Shown here: positions 10,242-33,175 of the stretch, piece by piece | Numbering within the stretch: position 1 is the first letter of the stretch | How the letters are laid out: every line of letters begins with the position of its first letter | Assembly: GCA_039024555.1 (NCBI GenBank) | Contig: JBCCQQ010000065.1 | Coordinates: 1 to 33,316, forward strand | Source of the DNA: Cyanobacteria bacterium P01_D01_bin.156 | GTDB lineage: Bacteria; Cyanobacteriota; Cyanobacteriia; Phormidesmidales; Phormidesmidaceae | Reading direction: 5' to 3' | Length of the DNA stretch: 33,316 nt | Program-made: the position numbers and the translations under genes | Notes under the pieces: model-generated | Database searches by the model: none | What the model saw: the letters and a program-made list of their open reading frames with translations, nothing else | Told to the model about the DNA's origin: nothing

Positions 10242-10251
10242 CAGTATCTCC

Positions 10252-13518: not shown

Positions 13519-13521
13519 GGC

Positions 13522-13824
13522 ATGCGCCTAGGAAAGGTTCGTGGCACGGTTGTTAGTACCTGTAAAGAGCCAAGCCTAACGGGCGTTAAGTTCTTGCTAA
13601 TTCAGTTTATTAGTGAGGATGGTGATTTGCTTCCAGATTACGAAGTAGCAGCTGATGTCGTGGGTGCAGGGCCTGGTGAATGGGTTCTGGTTACTCGCGG
13701 CAGCTCTGCCCGTCAGCATCGTGGCTATGAGGAAAGGCCGGTTGATGCTGCTGTAGTTGCCATTGTTGACACCGTTAGTTTGGACTCAGGTTCGCTCTAC
13801 AACAAACGTGAGGATTTCAGTTAG
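13522..13824 (+). CDS. ccmL: Carboxysome vertex pentamer CcmL
   Basis: VRGTVVST.K, VAADVVGAG.GEWVLV.RGSSAR. Confidence 0.93.
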   Translation: MRLGKVRGTVVSTCKEPSLTGVKFLLIQFISEDGDLLPDYEVAADVVGAGPGEWVLVTRGSSARQHRGYEERPVDAAVVAIVDTVSLDSGSLYNKREDFS

Positions 13825-13850
13825 CAGCTTATTTGGGAGGATAGGGGCCG

Positions 13851-15860: not shown

Positions 15861-15888
15861 TCTACACCCTGTCTTTAGGACCGTCGCG

Positions 15889-16590
15889 ATGGAACCCTCG
15901 CCTCTACATTTTGTGAGTCATACCCATTACTATCGCGGCGGCGACGTTGTTATTGATGCGTCGGCTGCTATTGCGCCTGGTGTTGTGTTGCGGGCGGCTC
16001 CGGGTGCTTCTATTCGGGTAGGTGCCGGTGTTTGTGTGGGTGCTGGTGTTGTAATTCAGGCGAAACAGGGGTGTGTCTTTATCGAGTCTGGGGCAAGTCT
16101 GGGTACGGGGGTGCTGGTTGTCGGTCATGGGCATGTGGGTAAAGATGCTTCGGTGGGGCCGTCTAGCACGTTAATGAATCCTGCGATCGCACCAAATGAG
16201 ATTATTCCACCCTGTTCCTTGATTCAAGGAAGCAACAGTCAGGTATCTAGCAATGGTGCTTCTACTTACGAAGAACCCAATCAGTTTCGGGCTCCTGACT
16301 TGAATGGTCATAGTTCGGCAGTGCCCTCTATGCCTATTCCTCCGCGTACATCACCTACGGTTCAGCCCCAGGCCGTTTCTCCAAAAGCTGTTGATGTACC
16401 CGATCTAGAGACGCCTGCTGCCAAAACCGAGGATTTTGACAGTTCAGAACAGCAAACCAATCAAACCTCATCGGCGGTGGTGCAACAAAACGGGTATGTT
16501 TATGGGCGTGACCACTTAAATAATTTGTTGTCTGCTCTATTTCCCCACCGAAAACCCTTGAATAATGGAAATTCGGGTGGTGAATCTTAA
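15889..16590 (+). CDS. ccmN: Carboxysome assembly protein CcmN
   Basis: Hexapeptide repeats, P/S-rich linker, encapsulation peptide VYGRDHLNNLLSALFPH. Confidence 0.92.
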   Translation: MEPSPLHFVSHTHYYRGGDVVIDASAAIAPGVVLRAAPGASIRVGAGVCVGAGVVIQAKQGCVFIESGASLGTGVLVVGHGHVGKDASVGPSSTLMNPAIAPNEIIPPCSLIQGSNSQVSSNGASTYEEPNQFRAPDLNGHSSAVPSMPIPPRTSPTVQPQAVSPKAVDVPDLETPAAKTEDFDSSEQQTNQTSSAVVQQNGYVYGRDHLNNLLSALFPHRKPLNNGNSGGES

Positions 16591-16694
16591 AAAGACTTCT
16601 AGAATAGGGAATACATAATAATCAGTGTTTATTGAATTTAAGTAAGAGATTTTTATCATATTCAAGGCTTGCCTAACGCTACTTGAAACCTACA

Positions 16695-17555
16695 ATGCCA
16701 GCAGAATCCTCCGCTCTTGCCAGCTCCACTGATCAGGCCAGGTCCCTACTGAACCGGGTAAAGGATTCAGCCCTAGGAATTGTTTCAACGACTAGCTTTC
16801 CAGCCATCATTGGTGTTGCCGATGCCATGATGAAGTCTTCGAACGTGTACCTCGTTGGCTACGAAAAAACCGGTGGTGGTCAATGTAGTGCCATTGTTAG
16901 AGGTGGTGTGGCCGATGTTCGCATGGCGGTCCATGCCGGTGTAGAAACCGCCAAACAGTTTGGGCAGTTGGTATCTTCATCTCTGATTCCCAGACCCATG
17001 GCCGACATGGAAAAGGTTCTGCCAATTTTGCCCCGCATTAGCGATTTAGAAGGGGCAGGAGAAACCCATATGAGCAGTGGTGCTGTTGGCCTATTAGAAA
17101 CTCGTGGTTTTCCGGCCATGGTCGGTGCAGCGGATGCCATGACCAAATCTGCCGAGGTGGAATTAATTTCCCACGAAACCATTGGAGAAGGGTTGTGCAC
17201 GATTTTGATTCGTGGGTCGCTATCCAATGTGGCTATTGCCGTTGAAGCCGGAATGCATGAAGCTGAGCGCATTGGTGAGCTCAGCGCGGTGATGGTGATT
17301 CCCCGACCTCTCAATGATTTGGAGCGTAGTCTACCGAAGGTTAAGCAGGTTAAGACCCAGAAACCACAGAAGGTACAGCTACCGCTGAAACTAGGGGAGC
17401 GGCAGAAAGAGCTTATGCCTGCTCAGGCTCCTGCGGTGGAAGTTCAGAAACAAAGACAATTAGATTTGCCTGAAACAGAGTTGGTTCAGGCCCAGCAGCC
17501 TCCCACCATAGAAGTACAGCCGCAAAAGCCATTAGATTTGCCTGAGTTTGAGTAA
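16695..17555 (+). CDS. ccmO: Tandem-BMC shell protein CcmO
   Basis: Two BMC domains (ALGIVSTTSFPAIIG; AVGLLETRGFPAMVG); start ATG 16695 or TTG 16683. Confidence 0.9.
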   Translation: MPAESSALASSTDQARSLLNRVKDSALGIVSTTSFPAIIGVADAMMKSSNVYLVGYEKTGGGQCSAIVRGGVADVRMAVHAGVETAKQFGQLVSSSLIPRPMADMEKVLPILPRISDLEGAGETHMSSGAVGLLETRGFPAMVGAADAMTKSAEVELISHETIGEGLCTILIRGSLSNVAIAVEAGMHEAERIGELSAVMVIPRPLNDLERSLPKVKQVKTQKPQKVQLPLKLGERQKELMPAQAPAVEVQKQRQLDLPETELVQAQQPPTIEVQPQKPLDLPEFE

Positions 17556-18436: not shown

Positions 18437-19210
18437 ATGAAAAAGGCCGTTTACTGGTTAATGGGGGAGCAAGGGGGGAAAGCTTCCATAACTGCCTGGA
18501 ACTGGTTGTGGGGAATTGAGGAGGATGTGGCTGAACCAGAAACTGCCGAAGATGCAGATGAAGCTGAGATCGCACTAGACGAAGATGTATCTATACTTGA
18601 TGAAGATGCGATCGCAGCAGCCGAAGCATCGCTCAAGGCCATGCAGCAATCTGTCCAGCAGCTAGCCACCGCTACCAACCAACAGTACGCCACCTTTCAG
18701 CGGGCCAAGCAGATGTACCTGCGCAAAGTAAAGAACCTGGAGTGGGCAGAAAAATCAGCGTTGCGAGCAGAAAAAGAAGGTCGCCACAGTGATGCAGAAA
18801 CCGCCATGGCCCACGTGATTCAGCTAGAACAGCTCTTACCTGAACTAGAAATCCAGGTGGAACAGGCCGAAAAATGGGTGAATGCCTCTCTCGTTAAATT
18901 GCAACAGGAACAGGAAAGGCTCGAAAGTTACAAACGAGATTTTCAAACCCTTAAAAACCTAACCGAGGTCAATGAAGCCTTGACCGCCATTGCCGCAACC
19001 CATAATGCCCAGGATATGGCCTCTGCCCGTGCTCAGTTTGAGGCGGCCAAGAATTTGGTACACACACGGTATCTAGAAAACCAAGCCTATGTCGAACTGG
19101 CGGTAAACCCAGCTGACACATTAGATGCCTCCATAGACATGGCCCAGCAGCAGGAAATTGCCCGCCGACGATTACAGGAGTTGAAGCAGCGTCAGCAGTC
19201 GCTGAATTAA
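18437..19210 (+). CDS. PspA/IM30-like coiled-coil protein
   Basis: N-terminal YWLMGE...WNWLWG, acidic linker, long heptad A/E/Q-rich helices. Confidence 0.65.
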   Translation: MKKAVYWLMGEQGGKASITAWNWLWGIEEDVAEPETAEDADEAEIALDEDVSILDEDAIAAAEASLKAMQQSVQQLATATNQQYATFQRAKQMYLRKVKNLEWAEKSALRAEKEGRHSDAETAMAHVIQLEQLLPELEIQVEQAEKWVNASLVKLQQEQERLESYKRDFQTLKNLTEVNEALTAIAATHNAQDMASARAQFEAAKNLVHTRYLENQAYVELAVNPADTLDASIDMAQQQEIARRRLQELKQRQQSLN

Positions 19211-19456
19211 ACGCCCTTAATCGGCGGCGGCGTTAGGGGATAAAACAAGCTGTCAGATCTTCTAAGAAACAAGGATTTGACTACTATACTCCTTCCAAGA
19301 ATTAGCAGCGCCAAACCGCTCCTTCCAACTGTGCTTGGTCCCTTGCCAGAGGTGTGTTTTTACGAACAAACCTTGTCGCAATCTGCATCATATTCTGTCT
19401 GACTTGGGCAGATAGGGGATGTAAAAACGTTAATGAGAGTGACTGGAGATAGCACA

Positions 19457-20995
19457 GTGTCTAAGCGTAAAGGTGGCCCCCCACCTATTGTTTATATTGT
19501 CGGGATTATTGCGATCGCTTTTGGTGTTTTTAACTTTAGGGAAACCTTATTTTCAGCGTCTGAACAATCGTCATTAGCAAGTGACGGTGATTCAACCGAT
19601 CTGATGATTCTAGGGGATACCTTTAGCGGCTATAGTACATTTCGCTCCCCAGCATTTAAAGAAGAGCTCAATGAATTAGGCTTGTCCCTCAGTTTTGAAA
19701 ACGAGTTTGATCAAGCAGAAAGAGCGGCAAGATTGGCAGAGGGCAGTGCCGATCTGATTGTGACCACCTTAGATCAGTACTTAAAACATAAGCCAGACGG
19801 CAAAATTGTTGGTCTCATTGACCGCACCATTGGAGCTGATGCCGTGGTGCTCAATACCCCTAAATATGCAGACCTGAAATCTCTGAACGATCTCACCCAG
19901 CTGGTGGCCCAAGACAACTCTCTGAGTTTGACCTACGCCGTCGATACGCCGAGTGAGTTTTTAGCTCAAGTATTAGACATTCGCTTTGACGGTTTTAATA
20001 TGTCCGATTTTGAGCAACTTCAAGTTGCTGAAGCCTCAGAAGCCTGGGCAGAATTACAGGACCCCACCCAAAATATTGCAGTTGCGGTCCTTTGGGAGCC
20101 CTTTGTTAGCCAGGCCCGTGAAGCGGGGCACACCGTTGTCCTCTCTAGCAAAGATGCACCTAGTGCCATTTTGGACGTCATCGTTGCGTCAAATGACGTG
20201 ATCAGTCAGGAAGAGGAGACATTAACAGAGTTTCTATCGGCCTACTATCGACGAATGGATCAATCTGTTCGAGACAATACTCAATTGAAACAGCTGATTC
20301 AAACCGATGGGGATTTATCGGCAGCTCAGGCTGAGTTAGTTGTTGAAGGTATTGACTTTTTTACCTCAGTAGAAGCCGGACGCTGGATGGAAGATGGGAC
20401 CCTTTCTACACGTATTGATGCAACGTCAGCAATTTTGGTGCTATCGGGGCAGATGGTCCAGGTGCCTGCTGCTGAGGAACTCTATAGCGATCGCTTTATC
20501 ACTGCAGCCATTGCCAATACCCAGTCACTGATTGAAATGGTAGAAGCTGATGATCCTGAGCTGGCCCAATTCCTGATGGGAGAAGCCAGTACTGAGCAAC
20601 CACAAGCTGAGCTCACGTCAGAAGCTATTCAAAGCGCCCAGCCCATTGGTGACTTGGATGTAAAGGGAGAGGTTCGCTTTGGTTCGGGGTCAGCCATTAT
20701 CACCACCGAAAGCCAGCAGACCTTGGCCAATCTAGCTACCGAAATTAAGGAATTTAATACTGAAACTGTGGCTATTCGGGTGATTGGCCATACCTCTCAA
20801 ACGGGCGATCCAACCTTTAATCAGCGGCTTAGTCAGCAGCGGGCTGAAGCTGTGGTGCAGTACCTAAAGGGACAAGCTGTGGAGCACAATATTTCAGCTG
20901 AGGGTAAAGGTTCCAATGAACCGTTACCAGGTGTGGCTGGGAATAGTTCACAAAATCAGCGTACAGAAATTCGACTGGTGCGGATTAATCAGTAG
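19457..20995 (+). CDS. Membrane-anchored substrate-binding (NMT1/THI5-like) domain plus OmpA-like C-terminal domain
   Basis: N-terminal TM helix; GDTFSGY, DRTIGADAVV; GHTS...NQRLSQQRAEAV...NQRTEI; GGAG before GTG 19457 (ATG 19433 is an alternative). Confidence 0.8.
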   Translation: MSKRKGGPPPIVYIVGIIAIAFGVFNFRETLFSASEQSSLASDGDSTDLMILGDTFSGYSTFRSPAFKEELNELGLSLSFENEFDQAERAARLAEGSADLIVTTLDQYLKHKPDGKIVGLIDRTIGADAVVLNTPKYADLKSLNDLTQLVAQDNSLSLTYAVDTPSEFLAQVLDIRFDGFNMSDFEQLQVAEASEAWAELQDPTQNIAVAVLWEPFVSQAREAGHTVVLSSKDAPSAILDVIVASNDVISQEEETLTEFLSAYYRRMDQSVRDNTQLKQLIQTDGDLSAAQAELVVEGIDFFTSVEAGRWMEDGTLSTRIDATSAILVLSGQMVQVPAAEELYSDRFITAAIANTQSLIEMVEADDPELAQFLMGEASTEQPQAELTSEAIQSAQPIGDLDVKGEVRFGSGSAIITTESQQTLANLATEIKEFNTETVAIRVIGHTSQTGDPTFNQRLSQQRAEAVVQYLKGQAVEHNISAEGKGSNEPLPGVAGNSSQNQRTEIRLVRINQ

Positions 20996-21090
20996 AGTTT
21001 TTCCCTGGCATACCGCCTAAATGCCAAGCTTCCTGGGGCTGCGAATAAAAATTGTTCCAGACATTAGACTGCCAGACTGAACCTATTTCA

Positions 21091-21602
21091 GCCGTTGCTG
21101 ATTTCTGGGATGGACCGATCTGACGATGCTCGGCTGTGCCAGACTCTCTCAGAAAAAATCATCCCGAGGATCAGTAACGCCCTATTTCATCTATGGTAGC
21201 CCCGTTGTCCAGGCGTATAAGATTCCTACTGCCATAATACGTCCCATGTCAGCGCTGTGTACTATGTGTCGGTGCCGAACTCGGGCAATGATGAGGCAGG
21301 TAGTCTGGTGTTCTTTGATGATGTGCGATCTAATGAGGTGAGTCCTGAGTTGGGCAGTGAGAATACAATATTGTGATGAATTGGAATGCTCTAAATCAGG
21401 AGCAGGCGATGTACGAGCCCACAGAGGGGCGGTTGATTTTGTTCCTGTCGAAACAGCGCCATAGGGTGACGATGAATCATACAGAAGGAGTAAAAATTTC
21501 GTTGTCGTTTGATATTGTGTTGGCGGCGAAGCCAGGAAGTGAAGCAGGGGCCTATGAGTTTTTACTGCCGCCGCCAGACCAGTGGAAAAAGTTTAGTCAG
21601 TA
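21091..21602 (+). pseudogene. Decayed duplicate of the 2OG-Fe(II) oxygenase gene and its upstream region (copy of 29375-30216)
   Basis: 21091-21226 aligns to 29375-29510; about 330 bp including the start codon are deleted; 21228-21602 aligns to 29840-30215 with a -1 frameshift near 21367. Confidence 0.9.
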
Positions 21603-21605
21603 TTC

Positions 21606-22784
21606 CTAGAGTTGCTCTTTATATTTCTGAAGTATACGAATTGGCCTCAAAAAATAATACATAAAAGAAAAAGCAGCTGGTAAATCCCAATATGCCTTAT
21701 CTGCTGGTGTTAAAGTGAGCCACCCCGAGTGATTCATTAAGCCTATAAATGTTTTTAACTTATCAGACCAGCGCTCTCGAGTGCGCATATGAAATCGGCT
21801 TCGCTCGACTTCTCCAACTGGAGTAATGGACATTTGAAACAACTGTTGGTTGACTATATTTTCTAGCTCCGTGAGAGCTATTACATCCTTAACCATCCAC
21901 TGAGTTGCGATTTCAGGCAATTCTGCTCCTAACAGATTTTGTGCTAACGTTAGCCCCAGGCTTACTAGGCGTTGATACCCCCAACCCTGAGTTAAGGTGA
22001 TTACTTTATCCCAGTCTAAGGTTGAGCACTCAACTAATGCTGCCACATCGCAGATACGATTGAGATGCCTCCAATGCTCTTTCGTGCCATGCAAGCACAG
22101 CATGATTAAAGTCATTTCTGGTGTCAGACTAGTGATTGTCTGCCCTGCTAGCGATAAAGGCTGTGTATGTTGCCAAACATCCTGATTAGTTAAGGGATGA
22201 GACAGATGTTGAGGCGCAATCAAATTGTGCAGGTCAAGATTATATATACTATCTTTGCGCACTAGATGCGTCTCCCATGGTACCTCGATTTTGGGTTGAT
22301 AACCATCGGCTAGCAACAGATTTTTGGCCGTCTCAAAATCTTCGTCATAAAATAGAAAATCAAGATCACTAATCTGTCGGAGAGAGATATTTTTATAGAC
22401 AGACTGTGCTAGAACTGGACCCTTAAAGGGGAGAACTGCAAGATTTTGATCATCAAAGCGCTTTAATAGGCGACACAACTCTCTTGTTAAGAGCAAATTA
22501 TGATGTGTATTTTGTTGAAGAGAAGAGTTTACATACTCTAAAACATTTGTTGGCAACCTATTTGAGAAAAGCTGCTTTAAGTTCCAACAGATGAGGGGGA
22601 GAATTCCTTGTTGAGTGGCTGTCTGAAAAAATAATGACCAGTCAATGGTGGCTTGCAGCAGTTCCTTGATATAAGAGCAATCCTGTTCTGACAGGTTTAA
22701 TCGTACAACATGCAATATTAAGTTGATTTCTGATGGGTAATCAGTAGAAATCCTGGAGATAGGCTTTGTTATAGAAGCAACCAT
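21606..22784 (-). CDS. Nucleotidyltransferase family protein (lasso cluster tailoring, PsmN-like)
   Basis: FKGPVLA...RQISDLDFL, LDLH, LCLHGTKEHW..L..ICDV. Confidence 0.85.
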   Translation of the reverse strand: MVASITKPISRISTDYPSEINLILHVVRLNLSEQDCSYIKELLQATIDWSLFFQTATQQGILPLICWNLKQLFSNRLPTNVLEYVNSSLQQNTHHNLLLTRELCRLLKRFDDQNLAVLPFKGPVLAQSVYKNISLRQISDLDFLFYDEDFETAKNLLLADGYQPKIEVPWETHLVRKDSIYNLDLHNLIAPQHLSHPLTNQDVWQHTQPLSLAGQTITSLTPEMTLIMLCLHGTKEHWRHLNRICDVAALVECSTLDWDKVITLTQGWGYQRLVSLGLTLAQNLLGAELPEIATQWMVKDVIALTELENIVNQQLFQMSITPVGEVERSRFHMRTRERWSDKLKTFIGLMNHSGWLTLTPADKAYWDLPAAFSFMYYFLRPIRILQKYKEQL

Positions 22785-22853
22785 AGAACTAACGAAGGAT
22801 TATTTAACAGGGAATCAAAATCTGCAATAACTTTTTGATGGGTGACCTACAGA

Positions 22854-24698
22854 CTATTTACCAGTGCCTATAGGAATTATTGGGGCAACTTTGCTATCAG
22901 TGTTGACCTGAGCTGACCAAGACTGGGCGTATAGCCCACCTTGCATAATGAGTTCATCATGATGACCCGATTCTACAATTTGTCCCTCTTTCATAACGTG
23001 TACTATGTCGGCCCTTACTGCTAGGGGAAACCGATGGGTAACTAACAGGGCAGTTCTCCCCTGAGCCACTGTCTGGAATCGATCAATCCATTGCATTTCA
23101 GCCCAAGGGTCCATAGCACTAGTAGGCTCATCCAAGATGATCAGTGGCGCTTGCCTAAAAAAGGCTCGGGCCAAGGCTACCCGCTGCCATTCGCCACCGC
23201 TGAGATCGGTACCGCCGGGAAACATTTTGCCCAGTTGAGATTCATAGCCGTCAGGTAATCGCTGGATAATTTCATCTGCTCCAGCTACCTTTGCGGCTGT
23301 CTTGATACTCTCTTGGGTGGCGTCACGATTAATATCCCCTAAAGAAATGCTTTCGGCAGCACTCAAATAATACGGTACTGGATATTGAAATAGGATTGTA
23401 ATTCTACGTCTCAGTTCTCTTATAGAAAATGATTTTATGTCAACTCCGTTAAGTTCTATAGAGCCACGTTCTGGATCATAAAATCGGCATAATAACTTAG
23501 TCAGAGTACTCTTCCCAGCGCCATTATCTCCTACGATAGCAACAACTTTTCCAATCGGTATAGTCAAATTAAAACTATTGAGTATGAATCGCTGACTACC
23601 TGGATATCGAAATGATACATTCTTGAAACGAATTTCCCCAGAGATATTTGAGATTGGTTGAGGCTCAATGGGATCAAAGATGGTAGGTTGTAGATCGAAA
23701 AATTTGAATAAGTCGTCTATAAATAATTGGTTGCGATGGAACTGATTTAAATTGGTCATTACTGTACGCATCATTCCCTGGCTTCTATTTAAGGCTTGAT
23801 AGAATAATGCCAAATCACCTAAAGTAATAGCTCCTAACAGTGCCTGTTCAAACATCCAGAAAAAAGCAAAACCTGTCATAGCAAAACTTACAAGGCTTGC
23901 CACTAGACGCCTGACACTCTGACGACTGATTAAATTTAACTGTTCAGTCCGTAAACGATGTCTTATCTCTTGATAAGACGTCTGAAAAAAATCTCCTAGA
24001 CTAAAAAGTCTGACTTCCGGGGCCGACATGGAGTGAGTCAAAAGCTGTTCTTGATACTGTAACCATCGACGATCGGTTGTTGTATTGATTTGCCACCGAT
24101 ATTGTTCACGGTTGAGCCGTACTGCAATTATCAAGATTGGTAAAGCGCTAGCAATAATAAGAAACGGCATCCAGCTGCTGTAAGATAGCAAGACTGCTGC
24201 CATCGATAACAACGTCAAACTATTTTGCAAAAAGCTGCCGACGCTGTTGATCAGTGACAATGTCTGACCGCTAGCTCCATTTCTAATTCGGTTGAGATGA
24301 TCGTAATAATCAGAAGACTCGTAGCATGCTAGATCAATCTCAACTGACTTTTGGTGAATCAACTGACTGAGATGGTCATTGACTAATTCAGATTGTTGAG
24401 TGCGTACAAGGGTTGCTATATTTTGTAATACTTCCGATAGTATCAGGATACCTGCCATCAGGCTGACTGGTAAAAGCACATGGTTTATGGTGGCTTGTGA
24501 AAAGCCTTGGCCCATCACACTACTTAGGTCATCCACTAGCCACCGAGTAGTATAAACACTAGCGATGGGGATCAATCCCTGAACCAACAGTAAACCCGCC
24601 CAAGCCATTGTCCAATAGCGTGAAGCGGCCCAAATTAGCCGAAAGGTTTTATAAATTTGGGTAAGTTGGTGGCTAAATTGTTGATAACGTAAATACAC
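22854..24698 (-). CDS. ABC exporter, fused permease and ATPase (lasso D protein)
   Basis: TM domain, GDNGAGKST, LSGGEWQR, ILDEP. Confidence 0.92.
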   Translation of the reverse strand: MYLRYQQFSHQLTQIYKTFRLIWAASRYWTMAWAGLLLVQGLIPIASVYTTRWLVDDLSSVMGQGFSQATINHVLLPVSLMAGILILSEVLQNIATLVRTQQSELVNDHLSQLIHQKSVEIDLACYESSDYYDHLNRIRNGASGQTLSLINSVGSFLQNSLTLLSMAAVLLSYSSWMPFLIIASALPILIIAVRLNREQYRWQINTTTDRRWLQYQEQLLTHSMSAPEVRLFSLGDFFQTSYQEIRHRLRTEQLNLISRQSVRRLVASLVSFAMTGFAFFWMFEQALLGAITLGDLALFYQALNRSQGMMRTVMTNLNQFHRNQLFIDDLFKFFDLQPTIFDPIEPQPISNISGEIRFKNVSFRYPGSQRFILNSFNLTIPIGKVVAIVGDNGAGKSTLTKLLCRFYDPERGSIELNGVDIKSFSIRELRRRITILFQYPVPYYLSAAESISLGDINRDATQESIKTAAKVAGADEIIQRLPDGYESQLGKMFPGGTDLSGGEWQRVALARAFFRQAPLIILDEPTSAMDPWAEMQWIDRFQTVAQGRTALLVTHRFPLAVRADIVHVMKEGQIVESGHHDELIMQGGLYAQSWSAQVNTDSKVAPIIPIGTGK

Positions 24699-24794
24699 AG
24701 GTTAGAGAATCCTACAGGCTAAGGGAAGTAATCAGGTATTACTTGAGCAAGTTGTTTGATTAGAATTTTCTTGAATAGTCGAATTTAGGTTTAT

Positions 24795-25739
24795 TTAAAT
24801 AACATTTTGCACAGTCATCTTCTGAGATGATTGTGCATTTTTGACATGAGTTTCAACTAGTTGGGCTATGTTATCCAAATCATTAAGCGCATTTTTTCGC
24901 TTAAGAAAAAAGACAGGAACCTGTTTTAATATGCGAGTGCAACGTAGAAAATGATCAGACTTGCTTGTAACATCAAATATAGAACTACCAAAGCGAGCAC
25001 AGTACCAGTTACGCATAAGGGCATTCAGGGCCTGAGTACCAGATGGAGTCTCAATGTTGAGTGTTGCTCCTCCTGCTAATAGATAAATATGTTTGAGTGG
25101 CTGGGCAGCTTTTACTAAGCTTTTTTTAGACTGAAAATCTCGTTTGTCAATTTCAGGATGGAGCTTTGATAAACCCTCTGGTTGTTGCCCTAAGGCAAAA
25201 GCTGACTCTGGCCATAGTTTAAGTTGCCCATACCCTGGTAAAAGCATAGCTTGATGTGGATTACTCAAATCGATGGCTGTGACATCATCGGAAAAAAATG
25301 GATAACCGCGTTTATGCAAGGCTCCGGCAGTAGTTGACTTTCCCCATCCTTTGTTACCCATAAAGGCTACTGCACATCCATTTAAGGAAACAGAGCTTGC
25401 ATGTAATACAAATAGATTCCTTTGATGCAACAGCATTCCTAGACCGGCTCCTAATAAGAAGAGCCGTACTACATTTTTATCTGCATCTGGAAGGAGATTT
25501 AGAACGATTTCAGTCCCATTCCTAATCAGGAAAGTACCTATAAAAGGCCAATGCAAATAGACTTCATCCTTTTTGGGTGCTGCAACAAGGCATTGAGTTT
25601 GAGTTGATATAAAGTCAGGAGGTATAAAATCTCCTCGACTAATTGTGACATCTGTTGTTACAGCATCATTTAACGGACTTAATTCCGGCAAAAGCAATTC
25701 AGAGCAAATGGTTAAATTGTAAGCTCGGTAGAAAAACAT
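24795..25739 (-). CDS. HPr-kinase-like lasso peptide kinase (PadeK/PsmK-like)
   Basis: VLHAS, GNKGWGKST Walker A, SDD. Confidence 0.85.
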   Translation of the reverse strand: MFFYRAYNLTICSELLLPELSPLNDAVTTDVTISRGDFIPPDFISTQTQCLVAAPKKDEVYLHWPFIGTFLIRNGTEIVLNLLPDADKNVVRLFLLGAGLGMLLHQRNLFVLHASSVSLNGCAVAFMGNKGWGKSTTAGALHKRGYPFFSDDVTAIDLSNPHQAMLLPGYGQLKLWPESAFALGQQPEGLSKLHPEIDKRDFQSKKSLVKAAQPLKHIYLLAGGATLNIETPSGTQALNALMRNWYCARFGSSIFDVTSKSDHFLRCTRILKQVPVFFLKRKNALNDLDNIAQLVETHVKNAQSSQKMTVQNVI

Positions 25740-25800
25740 TTTCTTTCGCCGTAAATTATGAGGTTGCGTGTCTTGGAAAAAGCTGCCTTAAAGAAATAGT

Positions 25801-25834
25801 AAAAAATGCTTAGCCCCCGTTTTACCGGAGGCTA
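25801..25834 (-). terminator. Stem-loop with U-tract downstream of the precursor gene
   Basis: Minus strand TAGCCTCCG-GTAAAA-CGGGGGCTA-AGCA-TTTTTT. Confidence 0.6.
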
Positions 25835-25895
25835 GCTTGAGTCATCAAACTGAACTTTAGAAACTTTTTAGTCAGCTGAGAAACTCAATTACTCA

Positions 25896-26072
25896 CTATG
25901 ATCCACAGGCAAAGCCGAAGTCTTTTCTGTCGCACTTAGGGCCGAATACGCCGTCAGTACCATCAGCACCAAAGAAGGCATCTTCAACGAGATTACGTGT
26001 GCCTAAGGTGATCTCTTCGACGTCACCATGGACGATAAGAGCAGGTGCAGAGTAAGCTTTCTTCGTGTTCAT
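25896..26072 (-). CDS. Lasso peptide precursor (58 aa; not in ORF track)
   Basis: MNTKKAYSAPALIVHGDVEEITL/GTRNLVEDAFFGADGTDGVFGPKCDRKDFGFACGS*; GGAG RBS; YxxPxL leader motif, Thr at -2, Gly1, E7/D8. Confidence 0.93.
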   Translation of the reverse strand: MNTKKAYSAPALIVHGDVEEITLGTRNLVEDAFFGADGTDGVFGPKCDRKDFGFACGS

Positions 26073-26164
26073 TTATTTTCTCCAAATTGCTAACTGTTTT
26101 CTTGCATATTTCAAATCATTTTCTACTTAGGGTCTAGACATCACCTCCTTATTTGATCAAAAAT

Positions 26165-28117
26165 TTATTGAACATAACCTATCTGGAGACGTGGCGATAG
26201 TGCAGGTTGTTCATTTTGTTGATAACCTAACCACAGGCTTAGGACAATGATTTGCCACAGGGCTAAGTTTTTTTCTGATAATTTTTCATAGTTAAAATCT
26301 TTTTTTGTTGACCTTAATCTTGACAAATCAATATAGGGTTCTAGCTGACCTGACTCGTCAGAAAAAATGGCTTGGAGGTCAATATGCTTCTGGGTGATTA
26401 AGGTGTGACAAAAGTTATAGCCCAGATTGCCTTTGTCAGAACGCCAGCATACGTTGCTAGGCAGATGATTGTGCAAAGCTCGTCGGACAATCATGCGCGA
26501 TCGCCCATCTTGGATACGCTGATCGCTGGGTAGGGCCAAGCAAAACTCTGCTAATCGTCGGTCTGCAAAGGGAAATGTTGGCTCAATCGCAAAACTCATA
26601 CCTGCTTTACTGGCAATTTCTAGGGCCAACGGCATATCCCCAGAAAGCAAATCCCGGAAGCGACGATTTTTAGAAACACTCAAGTAAGGTAGAGGCTTAT
26701 ATTTGTCGGCACGCAGTCTACTGGGTAGAGAAATTCGTTCGACAAAGCTGGGGTTGATGAGAGCATAGTTGTCTTCAGGAGTAACTGGAGATGTCTGCCT
26801 TCTTGAACGTCGCCAGGCTTTTTTAAGTATGTTGGGAATTTTTTGTTTTAGGCTAAGTTCCCAGAGATAGCTTTTGAGAAGACTTGGAAATGAGTAGCCG
26901 GGCTGTCGCTTAGCTATCCCGTATAGCTGTTTGATTAGTGGGTAGTATTGGTCTGCCTGGGCTAAATCGATTAGATATTCCCATCCATGGCAGACTACAT
27001 TGTCCCCCATATACCCGTCGAGAAAAACCCTCACTCCCTGTTGTTGGGCAGCGCTGTAAAGACCACAGTGCATAAATAAATTGGGTGTTGCAAAGGGCTC
27101 ATCCTGATGCCAAAGCATCTTTTCAATTTGCGTTAGGGGATTTAGTCGATCAGCGCGTACAAAGTGAGGTTGTACCCCCCCTCGGTCGATTACCGCTTGA
27201 ATATAAGGACGTTCATCACTTTCAGGAACATCATCAAATACAGCTGAGAATGTGTGTAGAGGGTCTCGATTTTGCTGGGCTAGTTCTGCTTGAGCAACGC
27301 CTACAATAGAGGAAGAATCTAAGCCTCCACTCAAAGCAGATCCGATGGGATAAGCGCTACGCAAACGACATTTCACCGCCTTAGAAAAAATATCTAAATA
27401 GGCTTCTGCATATTCAGTTGCAGATGCTGGTTCAAGCTCTCTATTAGGGTCAAGAGACCAGAAAGGTTCGATGAGAAAGCGATTAGGGCTTACGATCAGC
27501 CGATGGGCTGGCGGTAGACGAAAAATATCTTGATAAAAGGTAATCGCCTTATCATTCAGCAATGAAGCTAGATGATCTCCTACCCTCACTTCATTGAGAC
27601 GTTGGGGCACCTGAGGCAGACAAAACAGTCCTTTAATTTCGGAACTAAACGTAAAGAGCTTTCGGGGGCCGTAGTGATAATAAAAAGGCCTTGCACCAAA
27701 GTAATCCCGAGCACAGAAAAGGATCTGATTGCGCCCATCCCAAATAGCAAAGGCAAAATCCCCCAACAGCTTTTCTGGACAGCGCTCTCCCCACTTCTCA
27801 TAAGCTGCCAGGATGATTTCACTGTCGGCCAATGGCTTTGAAGCATGGCTTTCTAGCTCCAAAGCCACGATCAGCTCATCTCGATTATCAATACGGGCAT
27901 CGGCGGTAATGGTGAGGGCACCCCGCTGCAGAGGCAGCTGTTCTGTTAGAGATTCTGGCGTGGTCCACAGCATGCGATGGCCTAATCCCACATTGCCAGA
28001 GGTCCAAATATCAGCCCCGTCAGGTCCCCGATGAGCTAGCCTATCCACCATGTTTGTCATCATGGTTGGTTCGACCGGGCGTCCATCTATGTAATATGTG
28101 CCAACAATGCCACTCAT
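26165..28117 (-). CDS. Lasso peptide cyclase (asparagine synthetase-like C protein)
   Basis: MSGIVG (no N-terminal Cys), HRGPDG, ALSGGLDSSS; adjacent to B1, B2 and the precursor. Confidence 0.92.
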   Translation of the reverse strand: MSGIVGTYYIDGRPVEPTMMTNMVDRLAHRGPDGADIWTSGNVGLGHRMLWTTPESLTEQLPLQRGALTITADARIDNRDELIVALELESHASKPLADSEIILAAYEKWGERCPEKLLGDFAFAIWDGRNQILFCARDYFGARPFYYHYGPRKLFTFSSEIKGLFCLPQVPQRLNEVRVGDHLASLLNDKAITFYQDIFRLPPAHRLIVSPNRFLIEPFWSLDPNRELEPASATEYAEAYLDIFSKAVKCRLRSAYPIGSALSGGLDSSSIVGVAQAELAQQNRDPLHTFSAVFDDVPESDERPYIQAVIDRGGVQPHFVRADRLNPLTQIEKMLWHQDEPFATPNLFMHCGLYSAAQQQGVRVFLDGYMGDNVVCHGWEYLIDLAQADQYYPLIKQLYGIAKRQPGYSFPSLLKSYLWELSLKQKIPNILKKAWRRSRRQTSPVTPEDNYALINPSFVERISLPSRLRADKYKPLPYLSVSKNRRFRDLLSGDMPLALEIASKAGMSFAIEPTFPFADRRLAEFCLALPSDQRIQDGRSRMIVRRALHNHLPSNVCWRSDKGNLGYNFCHTLITQKHIDLQAIFSDESGQLEPYIDLSRLRSTKKDFNYEKLSEKNLALWQIIVLSLWLGYQQNEQPALSPRLQIGYVQ

Positions 28118-28162
28118 AAGCTGTATTGCCTAACTGACAGATGAGGAGGGAGGGAGAACGCT

Positions 28163-28603
28163 TTAAAGACCAATGCTCTTTAATGAGGGGAGGGGGGTAA
28201 AGTCGCTAAGACCAGGTAAATTACCGATCAAAACTTTGTTCTGATGTTCTATCCAGGCATGGGCTGCCAGCTGCCCCTGACCATTCTTGGCGATGCCAAT
28301 ATACAACTGGTTACTATAGCCCCAACGATTAAATAGCACCTGGGCGGTCAATGCTTTAGCTAGGCACTTCGCTTGCTTGGGAGTATATCGACTGCTAGCT
28401 TCAACAGACCAGATAATTTTATTCAGAGGTATCCGAAATTTATTTTGAGAACCCTCAAAAGACAGCTTTGCCAAAATATTCCTGAGTCTCTGAAAAGGAA
28501 ATAACCATAAGCCTAATCGCACACCATGTAGAAGCATGGTCGTTTGTAGCAGTAGCCATCGATCCTCAGCTGTCAAGCGAAACAGCTTACGCACAAACCC
28601 CAT
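28163..28603 (-). CDS. Lasso peptide leader peptidase B2 (transglutaminase-like)
   Basis: KCLAKAL catalytic Cys, AHAWIE. Confidence 0.92.
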   Translation of the reverse strand: MGFVRKLFRLTAEDRWLLLQTTMLLHGVRLGLWLFPFQRLRNILAKLSFEGSQNKFRIPLNKIIWSVEASSRYTPKQAKCLAKALTAQVLFNRWGYSNQLYIGIAKNGQGQLAAHAWIEHQNKVLIGNLPGLSDFTPLPSLKSIGL

Positions 28604-28913
28604 AGTTCACCTCAATCAGATTAACGGCGTCCAAATCTGTGAGAATCTTTTGAAGATCTCGATCAAGAATCTCCGGTGCTACATCATACTCATGCAATAT
28701 AGTTTCGCGTATATCGCTAACGACTATCGTATCCTGAACCAGTTCCCATATTCTGATGCCCACACCAGTCAACCCATAGTAGACTCCAGAGTCAAGATGT
28801 AGTATGACGGATTCATCTCCCAGCTCAGATGAAATTTGACCGCTACACGCCTTGATGGAGGCGCTGAGCCAATTACTAGAAAGGTTTTGAGAAGCAGCGT
28901 AACTATTTTCCAT
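28587..28913 (-). CDS. Lasso RiPP recognition element B1 (PqqD family)
   Basis: ESVILHLDSGVYYGLTGVGIRIWELV...EYDV...LDRDL; overlaps the B2 start. Confidence 0.92.
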   Translation of the reverse strand: MENSYAASQNLSSNWLSASIKACSGQISSELGDESVILHLDSGVYYGLTGVGIRIWELVQDTIVVSDIRETILHEYDVAPEILDRDLQKILTDLDAVNLIEVNYGVCA

Positions 28914-29511
28914 GAGCAACGCGAGTATTTTTCATGAGGTTTTCAGAGAAGAAGAGCACATACCTCAACCAGAGAACTTACAGGCTATCTGGTAAATTTG
29001 ATGAACTCCTAGAACCAGGCTCAGCCTGGCGAAACGTAAACTGTCCAACATTCGCATTAGCCACAATTAAGCAACTCAGCAAATTGAGAAACATAGGCTT
29101 GCGTTTTCACCCACCAACCACGTGCTCTTATTCAAACACCTTGATAGATAATCGAATATGGCAACTGGGATTCTCAAGCCACACGGAATAGAATTTATCG
29201 TTATTTTATAAAGAAAGATTATTCTGCATACTTCATAGCTCAGACTTCGACCGTTATATCGTGCGATCAAGCGGATTTTTTGCCTGATTTGCCTTCATAG
29301 GCTTCACCATACCTTTACATTAATACTCATGTATAAATTAGTACTTATGATCGTACGTCCTTGTTAAGAAAAACGCCGTTGCTGATTTATAGGATGGACC
29401 GATCTGACGATGTTCTGCTGTGCCAGACTCTTTCAGAAAAAATTATCCTGAGGAGCAGCAACGCCCTATTTAATTTATAGTAGCTCCGTTGTCCAGGCCT
29501 ACAAAATTCCC

Positions 29512-30216
29512 ATGCCCGTTGATACTTGGTTTCCTCTGGCGGTGTATTACGAAGACCTTGCGGATGCCAACCTGCATAAAAAGAGGCTGATGGATGCTGC
29601 ATTGCAGCTAGAGCAGGATGGCTATGAACGTCGTGCATTTCCAGAAATGGCTTGGACCGGTGACTTGCATGGGGCGGAGCAAATTCACACTGATCCACAA
29701 TTTTCTTGGATTGTGGGCCAGGTGGAAGTGCATGTGCATCAGTATTTGAAAATGCTGGGTCTGGATCTTAGCCAAATTGATCTCTATATTCAGAGGGCTT
29801 GGCCTGTGATTTCTCGCTATCAGCAGGAGGTGGGTTCTCACTGCCATAATACGTCCCATGTTAGTGCTGTGTACTATGTTTCGGTGCCAAACTCGGGCAG
29901 TGATGAGGCGGGTAGTTTAGTGTTTTTTGATGATGCGCGGCCTAATGAGGTGAGTCCTGGGGTGGGCAGTGAAAATACAAATATTGTTGTGGATTGGAAT
30001 GCTCTAAATCAAGAACAGGCGATGTATGAGCCTACAGAGGGGCGGTTGATTTTGTTTCCGTCGAAACAGCGCCATGGGGTGACGATGAACCATACGGAAG
30101 GAGAACGGATTTCTCTTTCGTTTGATATTGTGTTGGCGGCGAAGCCGGGAAATGCGGCAGGAAGCTATGAGTTTTTATTGCCGCCGCCGGAACAGTGGAA
30201 GAAGTTTGGTCGGTAG
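29512..30216 (+). CDS. Putative 2OG-Fe(II) oxygenase (TIGR02466-like)
   Basis: WFP N-terminus, HCH....SAVYYV, LILFPSKQRHGV, RISLSFD. Confidence 0.85.
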   Translation: MPVDTWFPLAVYYEDLADANLHKKRLMDAALQLEQDGYERRAFPEMAWTGDLHGAEQIHTDPQFSWIVGQVEVHVHQYLKMLGLDLSQIDLYIQRAWPVISRYQQEVGSHCHNTSHVSAVYYVSVPNSGSDEAGSLVFFDDARPNEVSPGVGSENTNIVVDWNALNQEQAMYEPTEGRLILFPSKQRHGVTMNHTEGERISLSFDIVLAAKPGNAAGSYEFLLPPPEQWKKFGR

Positions 30217-30267
30217 GGTGTGCATCGCGCACCATTCGATATTACAGCGATTCTCCAATCAGCTCAA

Positions 30268-30837
30268 TTATGCATCCATAAAACCTTTGAGGGCAGCAAC
30301 CACGGGTTTAACTACTGGATGATCGATAGCTTCTTCTAGAGCGGTGCTTCCACCTTCTTTAAGAGCATTGATGACTCGGACTTTAAGGGTGGGATTGTTG
30401 TCAACGGATTCCACAAGTTTGGCTGTCATCATGGTTTGGCCGACAGGTGTGGTAGCGTCGTAGTCGGTTTCGAGCTGGGTCAGTAATTCTTTAATGTCTT
30501 TGGCAGCTTGGGCAAGGTCTTGGCTGTTGTTGATTTGGGTGTTGATTTTGTCCCCCATAACCTTATCGCCTCCGATGTTGTCGCCGGAGCCATATTGGTG
30601 GATAGTGTTGCCCATGATTAACTCTCCTGGTGTGTAAATTAGCTTGAGTACTTGGTTGGTATGGAGGGGAAGCATAGCGTAGGTTTGGCCATGATCATCG
30701 CTGAATTCGACTTCGTAGACATCAGCGGCTAATTCTTCGATAAGGGTGCCGACTTGGCCAGCCGTGAGATTGTGTTCGGGGAGGTCGTCTTTAAGGGTAA
30801 TGACGTCGAGTGGCTGTAGGTTGACTAGTGAATTCAT
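30268..30837 (-). CDS. DUF4926-like domain fused to a G/N/D-rich motif and a helical domain
   Basis: LDVITLKDDLPEHNL.AGQVGTLIE...YEVEFSDDHG.TYAML; then MGNTIHQYGSGDNIGGDKV; then QDLAQAAKDIKELL...NPTLKVRVINALKEGG. Confidence 0.8.
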   Translation of the reverse strand: MNSLVNLQPLDVITLKDDLPEHNLTAGQVGTLIEELAADVYEVEFSDDHGQTYAMLPLHTNQVLKLIYTPGELIMGNTIHQYGSGDNIGGDKVMGDKINTQINNSQDLAQAAKDIKELLTQLETDYDATTPVGQTMMTAKLVESVDNNPTLKVRVINALKEGGSTALEEAIDHPVVKPVVAALKGFMDA

Positions 30838-30880: not shown

Positions 30881-33175
30881 TTACGTGCCTGTTTTATTCC
30901 CTTCTACTAAGTCTCCCGCAACATTGTCGCCGTCACCCTGTTGGATGATTTTAGTAGGAGTGTTAGTAACGGAAATGTTGACTCCGTCGCTAGAGTTGTC
31001 TACGTTAACACCTTTGCGTCGAAGAATTCGGGTGTCCATGGACTCATATCCATTAAGGAGCTGGCGTAGGTTGAGTTTGAGCTTGAGTTTCCCAATGACA
31101 ACATTTTGTTCACCCATGTCTTCTAGGCCAAGCAGTTCTTGATAATCGAGGGGGGGATGGTCAGAATGATCAGGGACTGGCACCCATTCGCTAGGTTTGG
31201 CAAAGTTGGCATGAATTTTTTTGAATGTGTCGCGGATGAGACCCAGAAATAGCCTACGGGTGGATTCTTTGCCGCTGATGGCGATAAAGATTTTGTTGTC
31301 GGCGGGGTCGGCTTTGATGCGAGCGATGTTGTAGACTTCGTCACCCTCTGTGTAGGCGAGCATGACACCGCTGCGCCAATAGGTTTGCTGGTGGATTTTG
31401 TCGTGCATCAACACAATAAATCGGGATATAACGCTATCGGGTAAGATAGTGTAGTGATACTGAAACTCTAAAGGGTCGCCTTCTAATCCTGTTTCTTTAG
31501 GTTCCTCTTTAGGTAAAATGCCGGGGATTAGGTAGCGATCAGGTTTACATTCAGGTAGCTGAAAACAGAGTTGGAACTCTTGCATCAGTTCAATGAGATA
31601 AGTATGTCGCTGCTCTGGATAGCGAGCGGTGGGGAGGATGCGTGTGAGGTCGGCTAGGGAGAGTTGGCCTTTAGACTCGGTTTTTAGGTCGTCATCGCTG
31701 AGTAGGGTGTAGATGCCGGTGGTGACCCAGTCTGGGTTGAGGACATTAGTGTGTTTTAGCAGGGGATGGTCGCTGTAGTTGAGCACCAGACCCAGATTAT
31801 GGAGTAAGTTGATTAACTGAGTCTGGTCTTTTTCTTCTTCGATGCCTTGCTGGTCGCAGATACTTTCATATTTGGAGTATTTGATAAAGTCTTTATCTAA
31901 GTTTTCAAGTTGTTCTTTGACTTCAAACCAAGAGAGAGGTAATAGGTCATAGACTTCTTTGAGTTGACCCACCTCTTGGAGGATGGCCTGGTTAAGGTCG
32001 TCAATGCCAGTCCCTTTGAAACAAGAGGTTTCAATGATGGCTTTTATATTTGGATATTTTTCTCGCAAGGCTTTACGGTTGATATCGAGGGGCTGCTCAT
32101 CGCGCTTGTTGCCGACGATGATAACAGGGGCATTATCGCCGAAACTTTTGATCAGCTTTAGCCAGTAGTCCAGGCGATTTTCCTCTTCACTGGTGCGGCA
32201 GTTGCAGACGAGCAGGTAGAGACTGCGCTTGGTGAGGAAGAACTGGTGGGTAGCATGGTAGATTTCTTGACCACCAAAGTCCCACACATTGAGGCGAACG
32301 TCCTTAGTATTAACGCTGATTTTCCAATTAGTAACATTGAGCCCATCGGTTTGTTCTTCATTGGGATTAAAGCGATTCTTAATAAGACGGTTGATTAGGG
32401 AAGTTTTACCAACGCTACCTTGACCGACAAGAATCAGTTTCGCTTCATTAAGAGGACGTACATCACCGCTGCGAAGCTGACGGCAATAATTAAAAACTCT
32501 CTCAGCGTTTTTGGACTTAGTAAAACCTGATAAAATTTCTGGCGAAATAGGAAGAGGATTATCAATCAAATAAAAAAGTGTAAGGTTTGAGAGAGTTTCC
32601 AAGCTTTCGGGAATATTTTTGATTTTATTTTGACCAAGAGCAAGCTGTTTTAAAGAAGTTAGTTTTGCTAGAGAGTCTGGAATGACCGTGATCTGGTTCC
32701 TATGAAGAAAGAGTACTTGTAGCGCAGTGAGCTTTGCTATAGAGTCTGGAATCTTTATGATTCGATTCTGATAAAGACGGAGGATTTTAAGAGAGGCAAG
32801 CTGAGCTAAGGAATCTGGGATGACCGTGATTTGGTTCGAGCTGAGGTTGAGCTGTTGTAGAGAGGCAAGCTGAGCTAAGGAATCTGGGATGACCGTGATT
32901 TGATTCGAGCTGAGGTAGAGCTGTTGTAGAGAGGCAAGCTGAGCTAAGGAATCTGGGATGACCGTGATTTGGTTCGAGCTGAGGTCGAGCTGTCGTAGCT
33001 TTTGTAAGTTTCTTACATCTTCAGATATTTCAGTTAGCTCACTAGTTAAGACTATTAGAGTTTCTAACTGGGTTAGAGTAGCAACCTCACTTGGTAGTGT
33101 TTCCCAAGGGTTACCGCTGAGGTCTAAATAATTCAGATTATGTAGCCTCTTGATATTGCTTGGTAGGCTTGTCAA
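30881..33175 (-). CDS. LRR-Roc-COR (Roco) GTPase, 5' end interrupted by IS
   Basis: 23-aa LRRs, GQGSVGKTS, WDFGGQ, GNKRD, COR; the ORF begins mid-LRR (LTSLPSNI) right beside the IS end. Confidence 0.9.
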   Translation of the reverse strand: MTSLPSNIKRLHNLNYLDLSGNPWETLPSEVATLTQLETLIVLTSELTEISEDVRNLQKLRQLDLSSNQITVIPDSLAQLASLQQLYLSSNQITVIPDSLAQLASLQQLNLSSNQITVIPDSLAQLASLKILRLYQNRIIKIPDSIAKLTALQVLFLHRNQITVIPDSLAKLTSLKQLALGQNKIKNIPESLETLSNLTLFYLIDNPLPISPEILSGFTKSKNAERVFNYCRQLRSGDVRPLNEAKLILVGQGSVGKTSLINRLIKNRFNPNEEQTDGLNVTNWKISVNTKDVRLNVWDFGGQEIYHATHQFFLTKRSLYLLVCNCRTSEEENRLDYWLKLIKSFGDNAPVIIVGNKRDEQPLDINRKALREKYPNIKAIIETSCFKGTGIDDLNQAILQEVGQLKEVYDLLPLSWFEVKEQLENLDKDFIKYSKYESICDQQGIEEEKDQTQLINLLHNLGLVLNYSDHPLLKHTNVLNPDWVTTGIYTLLSDDDLKTESKGQLSLADLTRILPTARYPEQRHTYLIELMQEFQLCFQLPECKPDRYLIPGILPKEEPKETGLEGDPLEFQYHYTILPDSVISRFIVLMHDKIHQQTYWRSGVMLAYTEGDEVYNIARIKADPADNKIFIAISGKESTRRLFLGLIRDTFKKIHANFAKPSEWVPVPDHSDHPPLDYQELLGLEDMGEQNVVIGKLKLKLNLRQLLNGYESMDTRILRRKGVNVDNSSDGVNISVTNTPTKIIQQGDGDNVAGDLVEGNKTGT
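32792..32998 (-). repeat. Three near-identical 69-bp tandem repeats encoding LRRs
   Basis: Units 32792-32860, 32861-32929 and 32930-32998 encode L(R/Q)QL(D/Y/N)LSSNQITVIPDSLAQLAS. Confidence 0.92.

What the first reader, a model, noticed from the sequence alone, without database searches (positions are those of the whole stretch)
21606..28913. Complete cyanobacterial lasso-peptide cluster with kinase and nucleotidyltransferase tailoring
Seen: seven co-oriented minus-strand genes, B1(RRE)-B2(peptidase)-cyclase-precursor-HPr-like kinase-ABC exporter-nucleotidyltransferase, all with intact motifs. Known: this gene set matches paeninodin and pseudomycoidin clusters, where the kinase phosphorylates the C-terminal Ser and the nucleotidyltransferase PsmN is linked to glycosylation of that phosphate. 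Inference: the locus makes and exports a phosphorylated, possibly phospho-glycosylated, lasso peptide. Such products are poorly characterised in cyanobacteria.
Basis: partly seen in the sequence, partly recalled or inferred. Interest (0 to 1): 0.82.

Follow-up and report, generated by a model that had tools for sequence, protein, structure and literature searches.

The report
Disulfide-tailed phospho-lasso peptide gene cluster
A cyanobacterium carries an intact seven-gene set of a common type, predicted to make and export a knotted "lasso" peptide whose tail likely bears both a cysteine bridge and a phosphate (possibly sugar-capped) on its last serine, a pairing not found in the papers searched.

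Summary
Seven intact minus-strand genes encode RRE, B2 peptidase, lasso cyclase, precursor, HPr-type kinase, ABC exporter and PF14907 nucleotidyltransferase. The layout is common: 26 of 58 long-enough related loci share the order.

The 35-residue core has a predicted Gly1-Asp8 ring, Cys24 and Cys33 in the tail, and one Ser, at the end. Among 80 cores beside related cyclases, Cys number is 0 (53) or 2 (27), never 1, which points to a disulfide. Only 1 of 25 two-tail-Cys cores there ends in Ser, but 24 of 72 profile hits show both features.

The cassette sits between an intact and a decayed copy of an oxygenase gene, and its cyclase groups away from congeners, so it was likely acquired.

Phosphorylation is likely. 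Glycosylation is unproven: the nucleotidyltransferase model resembles NMP transferases. Nothing was shown at product level. The scan noted the same combination before, in a Gemmatimonadota genome (e1-9875613).

The parts
28587..28913 (-). B1, RiPP recognition element (PqqD fold); predicted to bind the YxxPxL leader
   Evidence: PF05402 E 1e-13; NF033536 58 bits, below cutoff 80
28163..28603 (-). B2 leader peptidase; Cys80 and His115 present, third triad residue not assigned
   Evidence: NF033537 106.5 bits, cutoff 33; PF13471
26165..28117 (-). Lasso cyclase; SGGLDSS 263-269, DGYMGD 367-372; Ser in place of the N-terminal catalytic Cys of asparagine synthetase B (that Cys is recalled)
   Evidence: NF033535 775 bits, cutoff 525
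25896..26072 (-). Precursor, 58 aa. 23-aa leader with Tyr-17, Pro-14, Leu-12, Thr-2. 35-aa core with predicted Gly1-Asp8 ring, Cys24, Cys33 and terminal Ser35
   Evidence: NF033528 38.6 bits; positions; family alignment
25811..25834 (-). Terminator-like hairpin right after the precursor gene; may raise precursor mRNA over the downstream genes (inference)
   Evidence: 9-pair stem plus T run; the region's total of 8 such sites equals the shuffle mean of 7.8, so weak; fold z -2.0
24795..25739 (-). HPr-kinase-like peptide kinase; H113, G128, G131, G133, K134, S135, D151, D152
   Evidence: PF07475 below cutoff; same spacing as BsfK H148-G163-G166-G168-K169-S170-D186-D187 (PMC10368454)
22854..24698 (-). 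MsbA-like ABC exporter with Walker A, LSGG signature, Walker B and H-loop
   Evidence: PF00005; TIGR02203 295 bits, below cutoff 602
21606..22784 (-). PF14907 nucleotidyltransferase (PsmN-like by family); KG 121-122, R136, D140-x-D142
   Evidence: PF14907 E 4.7e-56; G122, R136, D142 invariant and D140 at least 90% conserved in 114 rows; model pLDDT 94
21091..21602 (+). Decayed left copy of the TIGR02466 oxygenase region: about 325 nt deleted including the start codon, plus a 1-nt frameshift; begins with a multicopy ~90-nt hairpin
29375..30216 (+). Intact right copy: hairpin repeat plus TIGR02466 2OG-Fe(II) oxygenase gene 29512-30216; a flank, not judged part of the pathway
   Evidence: TIGR02466 94.5 bits, cutoff 62.5; one match each in 18 of 21 congeners

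Best explanation
This is an intact lasso-peptide gene cluster predicted to make a 35-residue peptide with a Gly1-Asp8 ring, a likely Cys24-Cys33 tail disulfide and a likely phosphorylated terminal Ser35, which the nucleotidyltransferase would cap further. Shown here: the genes, their motifs, the precursor sequence and the family pattern. Inferred from paeninodin, pseudomycoidin and Bsf work: (1) B1 binds the leader; (2) the kinase phosphorylates Ser35 on the linear precursor, possibly more than once; (3) B2 cuts after Leu-1; (4) the cyclase joins Gly1 to the Asp8 side chain around the tail; (5) the PF14907 enzyme uses its DxD metal site to act on the phosphoserine, most likely by NMP transfer or by enabling a hexose cap; (6) the ABC transporter exports the product; (7) the disulfide forms without a dedicated enzyme. 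The cassette likely entered this lineage at the oxygenase locus and has been kept intact since.
For: Family hits and motifs. Asp8 in 56 of 72 and terminal Ser in 54 of 72 related precursors; 34 have two Cys, 36 none, 1 one and 1 three. In 80 cores found through the cyclase rather than the precursor, 53 have no Cys, 27 have two and none has one, against about 27 expected with one under a Poisson model; kin are not independent. The nearest cluster, L067, has the same order and a core with Gly1, Asp8, two tail Cys and the Cys-Gly-Ser end. Class IV clusters need no oxidoreductase gene (PMC9266682, passages). The flanking duplicate gene decayed (87% identity, deletion, frameshift; branch 0.13 against 0.045) while 7.3 kb of lasso genes stayed open.
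Against: No product, expression or enzyme data. Kinase profile scores are below cutoff. BsfK phosphorylates Ser3 or Thr3, so lasso kinases do not all target the terminus (PMC10368454). Of the 80 cores, 52 do not end in Ser although 71 of 78 loci carry a kinase homolog, so kinase presence alone does not fix the site. Genomic context is known for only 2 of the two-Cys, terminal-Ser precursors (this one and L067). PsmN itself was not aligned to this protein. Unmodified pseudomycoidin was not threaded (PMC6993621, section heading), so threading is not guaranteed. The decay argument assumes the duplication is as old as the cassette's arrival.
Confidence: 0.62

Rival explanations
1. One reading: the product is a phospho-glycosylated lasso peptide like pseudomycoidin (+80+162n), with the PF14907 enzyme itself transferring the hexose from an NDP-sugar.
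For: psmN deletion and a DxD mutant abolish hexose peaks (PMC6993621). The DxD is intact here. FKRP, a nucleotidyltransferase-fold enzyme solved with CDP-ribitol, appears among fold matches (Z 6.8, 148 aligned, rmsd 4.0).
Against: The best fold matches are NMP transferases: MenT1 Z 13.9 (174 aligned, rmsd 2.8), ANT(2'') Z 12.7, LnuA Z 12.2. A shared fold shows no function. The hexoses were seen in E. coli, and a host enzyme is not excluded. No glycosyltransferase was among the 30 window proteins scanned.
Confidence: 0.3
2. The peptide is cyclised and phosphorylated, but the ring encircles the chain between Cys24 and Cys33 or is not threaded at all, so the product is a loop-tail-bridged or branched-cyclic peptide rather than class IV.
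For: The 27 residues after the ring are Gly-rich and the plug position cannot be assigned from sequence. Unmodified pseudomycoidin is reported as unthreaded (PMC6993621).
Against: In the family, the spacer between the Cys varies from 6 to 16 residues while the first Cys stays at core positions 23-31, which fits a free tail loop better (inference).
Confidence: 0.2
3. The cluster is a silent passenger of an insertion and makes nothing.
For: It lies in an insertion with lower GC (42.9% against 47.1%; 4.6% of 1,595 genome windows are as low). None of 21 congeners carries this precursor type.
Against: All seven frames and their catalytic motifs are intact beside a duplicate gene that has decayed.
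Confidence: 0.1

Closest known systems
Pseudomycoidin cluster psmCAKB1B2ND, Bacillus pseudomycoides (PMC6993621; passages and section 7 part 1 read)
   Same: Same seven gene types, C-terminal Ser precursor, DD kinase motif, DxD nucleotidyltransferase whose model resembles ANT(2'').
   Different: Gene order B1-B2-C-A-K-D-N; Gly1-Asp8 ring against Ala1-Glu9; a longer, 35-residue core with two tail Cys; cyanobacterial host.
Paeninodin (PadeK), ThcoK and SyanK systems (PMC9266682, passages)
   Same: HPr-type kinase with His-Lys-Asp-Asp residues and a terminal Ser substrate.
   Different: Paeninodin is class II without disulfide, and its cluster has no psmN-like gene.
Class IV lasso peptides LP2006, pandonodin, felipeptins (PMC7689547, PMC13352647, PMC9266682; passages)
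   Same: Two Cys after the ring, no oxidoreductase gene; felipeptins also have an 8-residue ring from Gly1.
   Different: Their clusters are described without kinase or nucleotidyltransferase. Pandonodin (33 aa) is named as having the longest tail, while this core has 35 aa. Disulfide position relative to the ring is untested here.
Bsf cluster, Bradymonas sediminis (PMC10368454, passages)
   Same: B1, B2, C, D, kinase and nucleotidyltransferase; identical kinase motif spacing.
   Different: BsfK modifies Ser3 and the leader has Ile-2; here position 3 is Arg and the leader has Thr-2.
Locus L067 (record title: Cyanobacteria bacterium P01_A01_bin.83), uncharacterised
   Same: Same order; cyclase 51%, kinase 55%, ABC 63%, nucleotidyltransferase 42%; precursor 42% with the same Gly1/Asp8/two-Cys/Cys-Gly-Ser pattern.
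   Different: Different flanking genes; 34-residue core.

Membership tests
Lasso peptide gene cluster | Lasso cyclase, B2 peptidase and RRE genes | tested here: met
   NF033535 and NF033537 above cutoff; PF05402 above cutoff, NF033536 below
Lasso peptide gene cluster | Precursor with YxxPxL leader, Thr-2 and Asp/Glu at core position 7-9 | tested here: met
   Tyr-17, Pro-14, Leu-12, Thr-2, Glu7, Asp8; Asp8 is the conserved one
Lasso peptide gene cluster | Threaded macrolactam product | not testable with these tools
   Needs MS, protease and heat assays, NMR
Paeninodin/pseudomycoidin-type phosphorylated lasso peptides | HPr-like kinase with His-Lys-Asp-Asp | tested here: met
   H113, K134, D151, D152; profile scores below cutoff
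Paeninodin/pseudomycoidin-type phosphorylated lasso peptides | C-terminal Ser in the precursor | tested here: met
   Ser35 is the only Ser of the core
Paeninodin/pseudomycoidin-type phosphorylated lasso peptides | Phosphate on that Ser | not testable with these tools
   Needs co-expression and MS/MS
Pseudomycoidin-type glycosylated lasso peptides | PsmN-like nucleotidyltransferase with metal-binding DxD | tested here: met
   PF14907, D140/D142
Pseudomycoidin-type glycosylated lasso peptides | Direct sequence orthology to PsmN | not tested
   The PsmN sequence was not fetched
Pseudomycoidin-type glycosylated lasso peptides | Hexose on the phosphate | not testable with these tools
   Fold matches favour NMP transferases but do not show function
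Class IV lasso peptides | Exactly two Cys, both after the ring | tested here: met
   Cys24 and Cys33
Class IV lasso peptides | Disulfide formed | tested here: inconclusive
   The 0-or-2 Cys pattern supports pairing but is indirect
Class IV lasso peptides | Both Cys lie in the tail below the ring | not testable with these tools
   Needs a structure

The most novel reading that the evidence does not exclude
This cluster is the type case of an undescribed group of long lasso peptides (at least 24 precursors in the sets searched) locked three ways: a macrolactam ring, a tail disulfide loop, and a terminal phosphoserine two residues past the second Cys that the PF14907 enzyme caps with a nucleotide or sugar. 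It would be the first characterised lasso peptide of this kind from a cyanobacterium as far as the papers searched show, and a clean substrate for settling what PsmN-type enzymes do.
Probability: 0.3. Interest if true: 0.65.

Novelty: new variant of a known kind. Interest (0 to 1): 0.4.

Why it matters
The chemistry of PsmN-type nucleotidyltransferases is still open in the papers read, and class IV lasso peptides are described as rare. This compact single-precursor cluster has only one Ser in its core, so it gives an unambiguous test of both the kinase site and the capping reaction. The 0-or-2 cysteine rule seen in 80 cores suggests disulfide-tailed lasso peptides are common in cyanobacteria (25 of 80 cores), far more than the few characterised examples imply. 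The enzyme set itself is ordinary.

Tried and rejected
Single-sequence search with the precursor found only itself; an alignment with the L067 precursor was needed. A metagenome scan with the kinase gave 1 distant locus. A 400-genome phylum search with the kinase gave 7 other genomes at 34-39% identity, none with this precursor type. No PDB sequence match for the nucleotidyltransferase at E up to 1; kinase matches to HPrK only at E 0.12-0.42. No Rfam match in 20900-30400. Promoter-like (15 against 17.3) and terminator-like (8 against 7.8) counts equal shuffles. No RNA holder listed. I looked for an empty-site allele in run X1: the joints at 21181/21182-29375 have short sides (22-30 nt) and fall in the multicopy hairpin, so they were not accepted. 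The oxygenase as a tailoring enzyme was rejected: it is single-copy in congeners on contigs or at positions apart from their lasso loci and matched none of the cyclase loci L001-L078 or L080-L098. A second precursor or lasso cluster in this genome was not found. The careful cyclase tree did not finish; the quick tree is cited and no one-clade test was run. No complex prediction was run. Paper searches found no characterised cyanobacterial lasso peptide and no class IV phosphorylated one; 'cyanobacterial lasso peptide' gave 0 papers. The library lacks most subscription papers, supplements were not read, and MIBiG was not available.
Full report
Observation. Cyclase (NF033535, 775 bits), B2 (NF033537, 106.5) and precursor (NF033528, 38.6, leader only) pass curated lasso-specific cutoffs. 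The RRE passes PF05402 and the last gene passes PF14907. The kinase scores below its profile cutoffs, but H113, G128, G131, G133, K134, S135, D151 and D152 have the same spacing as the motif given for BsfK in PMC10368454 (passages). The window is a whole 33,316-nt contig of a 6.6-Mb genome and carries carboxysome, PsbP and CO2-uptake genes, so the host is a cyanobacterium. No second cyclase or precursor was found in the genome. A 9,351-nt contig from a marine metagenome run, possibly the source, matches 20776-30126 without a difference.

How common the layout is. Of these 78, 71 carry a kinase homolog, 52 a nucleotidyltransferase homolog and 29 the same gene order. Among the 58 loci with enough flank, the counts are 57, 46 and 26. 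In the host's genus, 17 of 21 genomes match the cyclase. The gene set is therefore an ordinary cyanobacterial lasso cluster, not a rarity.

The precursor. The leader has Tyr-17, Pro-14, Leu-12 and Thr-2. The 35-residue core has Glu7 and Asp8, Cys24 and Cys33, and a single Ser at the end. The nearest cluster, L067, has a core with Gly1, Asp8, Phe10-Phe11, two tail Cys and the same Cys-Gly-Ser end. A profile of these two found three more by word search (one is nearly the L067 peptide) and 74 hits among 1.84 billion representatives. I parsed 72 of the 78 proteins then held; 6 long ones were skipped, and P0053 and P0071 look mis-split. Of the 72, 60 start with Gly, 56 have Asp8 and 54 end in Ser. 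Thirty-six have no Cys, 34 have two, one has one and one has three. Twenty-four have two Cys after position 9 plus a terminal Ser, counting this peptide and a near-identical pair. The query carried these features, so this set is biased towards them. The 14-row alignment was hand-picked for them, and only its Gly1, Asp8, Gly12 and Gly18 invariance is free of that choice. Genomic context is unknown for these proteins except the window's and L067's.

An unbiased check used cores found beside cyclases: 80 distinct cores in 56 of the 78 loci, kept if they had Asp or Glu at positions 7-9. Cys number was 0 in 53 and 2 in 27, never 1, where a Poisson model expects about 27 with one. Related sequences are not independent, but the pattern spans many genera and spacings and is best read as disulfide pairing. 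In that set 25 cores have both Cys in the tail and only one (L067) ends in Ser; 28 of 80 end in Ser overall. The combination seen here is thus rare among the cyanobacteria-centred loci. A profile search of 172 other genomes of the same order found four matches, none in the 21 congeners, and their cores do not end in Ser.

Mechanism. By analogy with paeninodin and pseudomycoidin (PMC9266682 passages; PMC6993621 passages and section 7 part 1), the kinase acts on the linear precursor's terminal Ser, B1/B2 remove the leader, the cyclase closes Gly1-Asp8 and the ABC transporter exports. The review treats class IV disulfides as probably non-enzymatic, which fits the absence of an oxidoreductase gene. 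The PF14907 protein keeps G122, R136, D140 and D142 across 114 aligned relatives (114 of 120 listed). Its model (pLDDT 94) matches nucleotidyltransferase folds over residues about 91-300: MenT1 Z 13.9, ANT(2'') Z 12.7, LnuA Z 12.2, FKRP Z 6.8 (Foldseek best E 2.2e-4 to LnuA). This agrees with the Phyre2 remark for PsmN and leaves open whether the enzyme transfers NMP or sugar. A 2026 paper still calls such enzymes uncharacterised NTP transferases (PMC13381572, passages). All steps in this paragraph are inferred.

Origin of the locus. The cluster is bracketed by two direct copies of an oxygenase region, 21091-21602 and 29375-30215, 86-88% alike. The left copy lacks about 325 nt including the start codon and has a frameshift. 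Congeners have one match each (18 of 21), and in 6 of 14 short congener loci the OmpA-domain gene lies directly upstream of it, as it does of the left copy here. The two copies are sisters (support 92/91) with branches 0.13 (left) and 0.045 (right), which indicates duplication in this lineage and decay of the left copy. The cyclase groups with L067 and L001 (SH-aLRT 99, quick tree) and not with the 15 close congener cyclases, which fall in three other clades. The cassette is 42.9% GC against 47.1%. Horizontal acquisition is the likely reading; donor and order of events were not tested. Seven open frames beside a decayed neighbour argue that the cluster is maintained, if duplication and arrival were one event.

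Comparison and novelty. It works like a pseudomycoidin-type pathway and meets every gene-level feature tested. It meets the sequence criterion for class IV, while the disulfide, its position and threading are untested. Class IV clusters described in the passages read (PMC9266682, PMC7689547, PMC13352647) have no kinase or nucleotidyltransferase, and pandonodin at 33 aa is named as having the longest tail. Seven searches found no characterised cyanobacterial lasso peptide and no phosphorylated class IV peptide. PMC6993621 does mention a cyanobacterial cluster with a kinase in Stanieria. PMC12214591 (passages) added nothing specific; other papers were seen as listings only. Subscription papers, supplements and MIBiG were out of reach and may hold such sequences. 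Earlier notes of this scan describe the same combination in a Gemmatimonadota genome and internal-Ser targets in other cyanobacterial clusters; they are unchecked and not counted as support.

Verdict. Real, intact, a known pathway type in a common layout, with a predicted product that pairs two known modifications in a way not found in print here. Interest 0.4; new variant of a known kind.

Noticed in passing
window 21091-21181 and 29375-29465: A ~90-nt imperfect hairpin with terminal inverted repeats, upstream of both oxygenase copies; 43 blastn hits across the genome, no Rfam match, fold z about -1.8. It looks like a miniature mobile repeat and may have helped the insertion.
   Followed up: partly
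loci L003, L004, L009, L016-L018, L020, L028, L030, L031, L048, L066, L074, L075, L125-L130: Many two-Cys cores lack a terminal Ser but show an internal G/D-S-x-D/N motif just before the first Cys, while their clusters mostly keep the kinase; a candidate internal phosphorylation site.
   Followed up: no
L029 and L054; P0019, P0027, P0047, P0050, P0055, P0060: Cores with one Cys in or next to the ring and one in the tail, i.e. class III-like, most also ending in Ser.
   Followed up: no
L065, L070, L071, L073: Lasso cyclase relatives with kinase homologs and precursor-like ORFs in records titled Methanobacteriaceae/Euryarchaeota.
   Followed up: no
window 30881-33175 (-): LRR-Roc-COR protein with 69-nt tandem repeats at 32652-32998; the ORF starts near the contig end and may be incomplete.
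   Followed up: no
window 7522-17555: CO2-uptake NDH-1 genes (ChpXY and two membrane subunits) divergent from a carboxysome operon (BMC, CcmL, CcmM-like); ordinary cyanobacterial content.
   Followed up: no
window 18437-20995 (+): A 257-aa protein with no Pfam match followed by a 520-aa protein with a C-terminal OmpA domain; the latter lies upstream of the oxygenase gene in several congeners.
   Followed up: partly
window 29331-29344: One NtcA-like palindrome pattern about 420 nt upstream of B1; a loose pattern typed from recall, chance not assessed.
   Followed up: no
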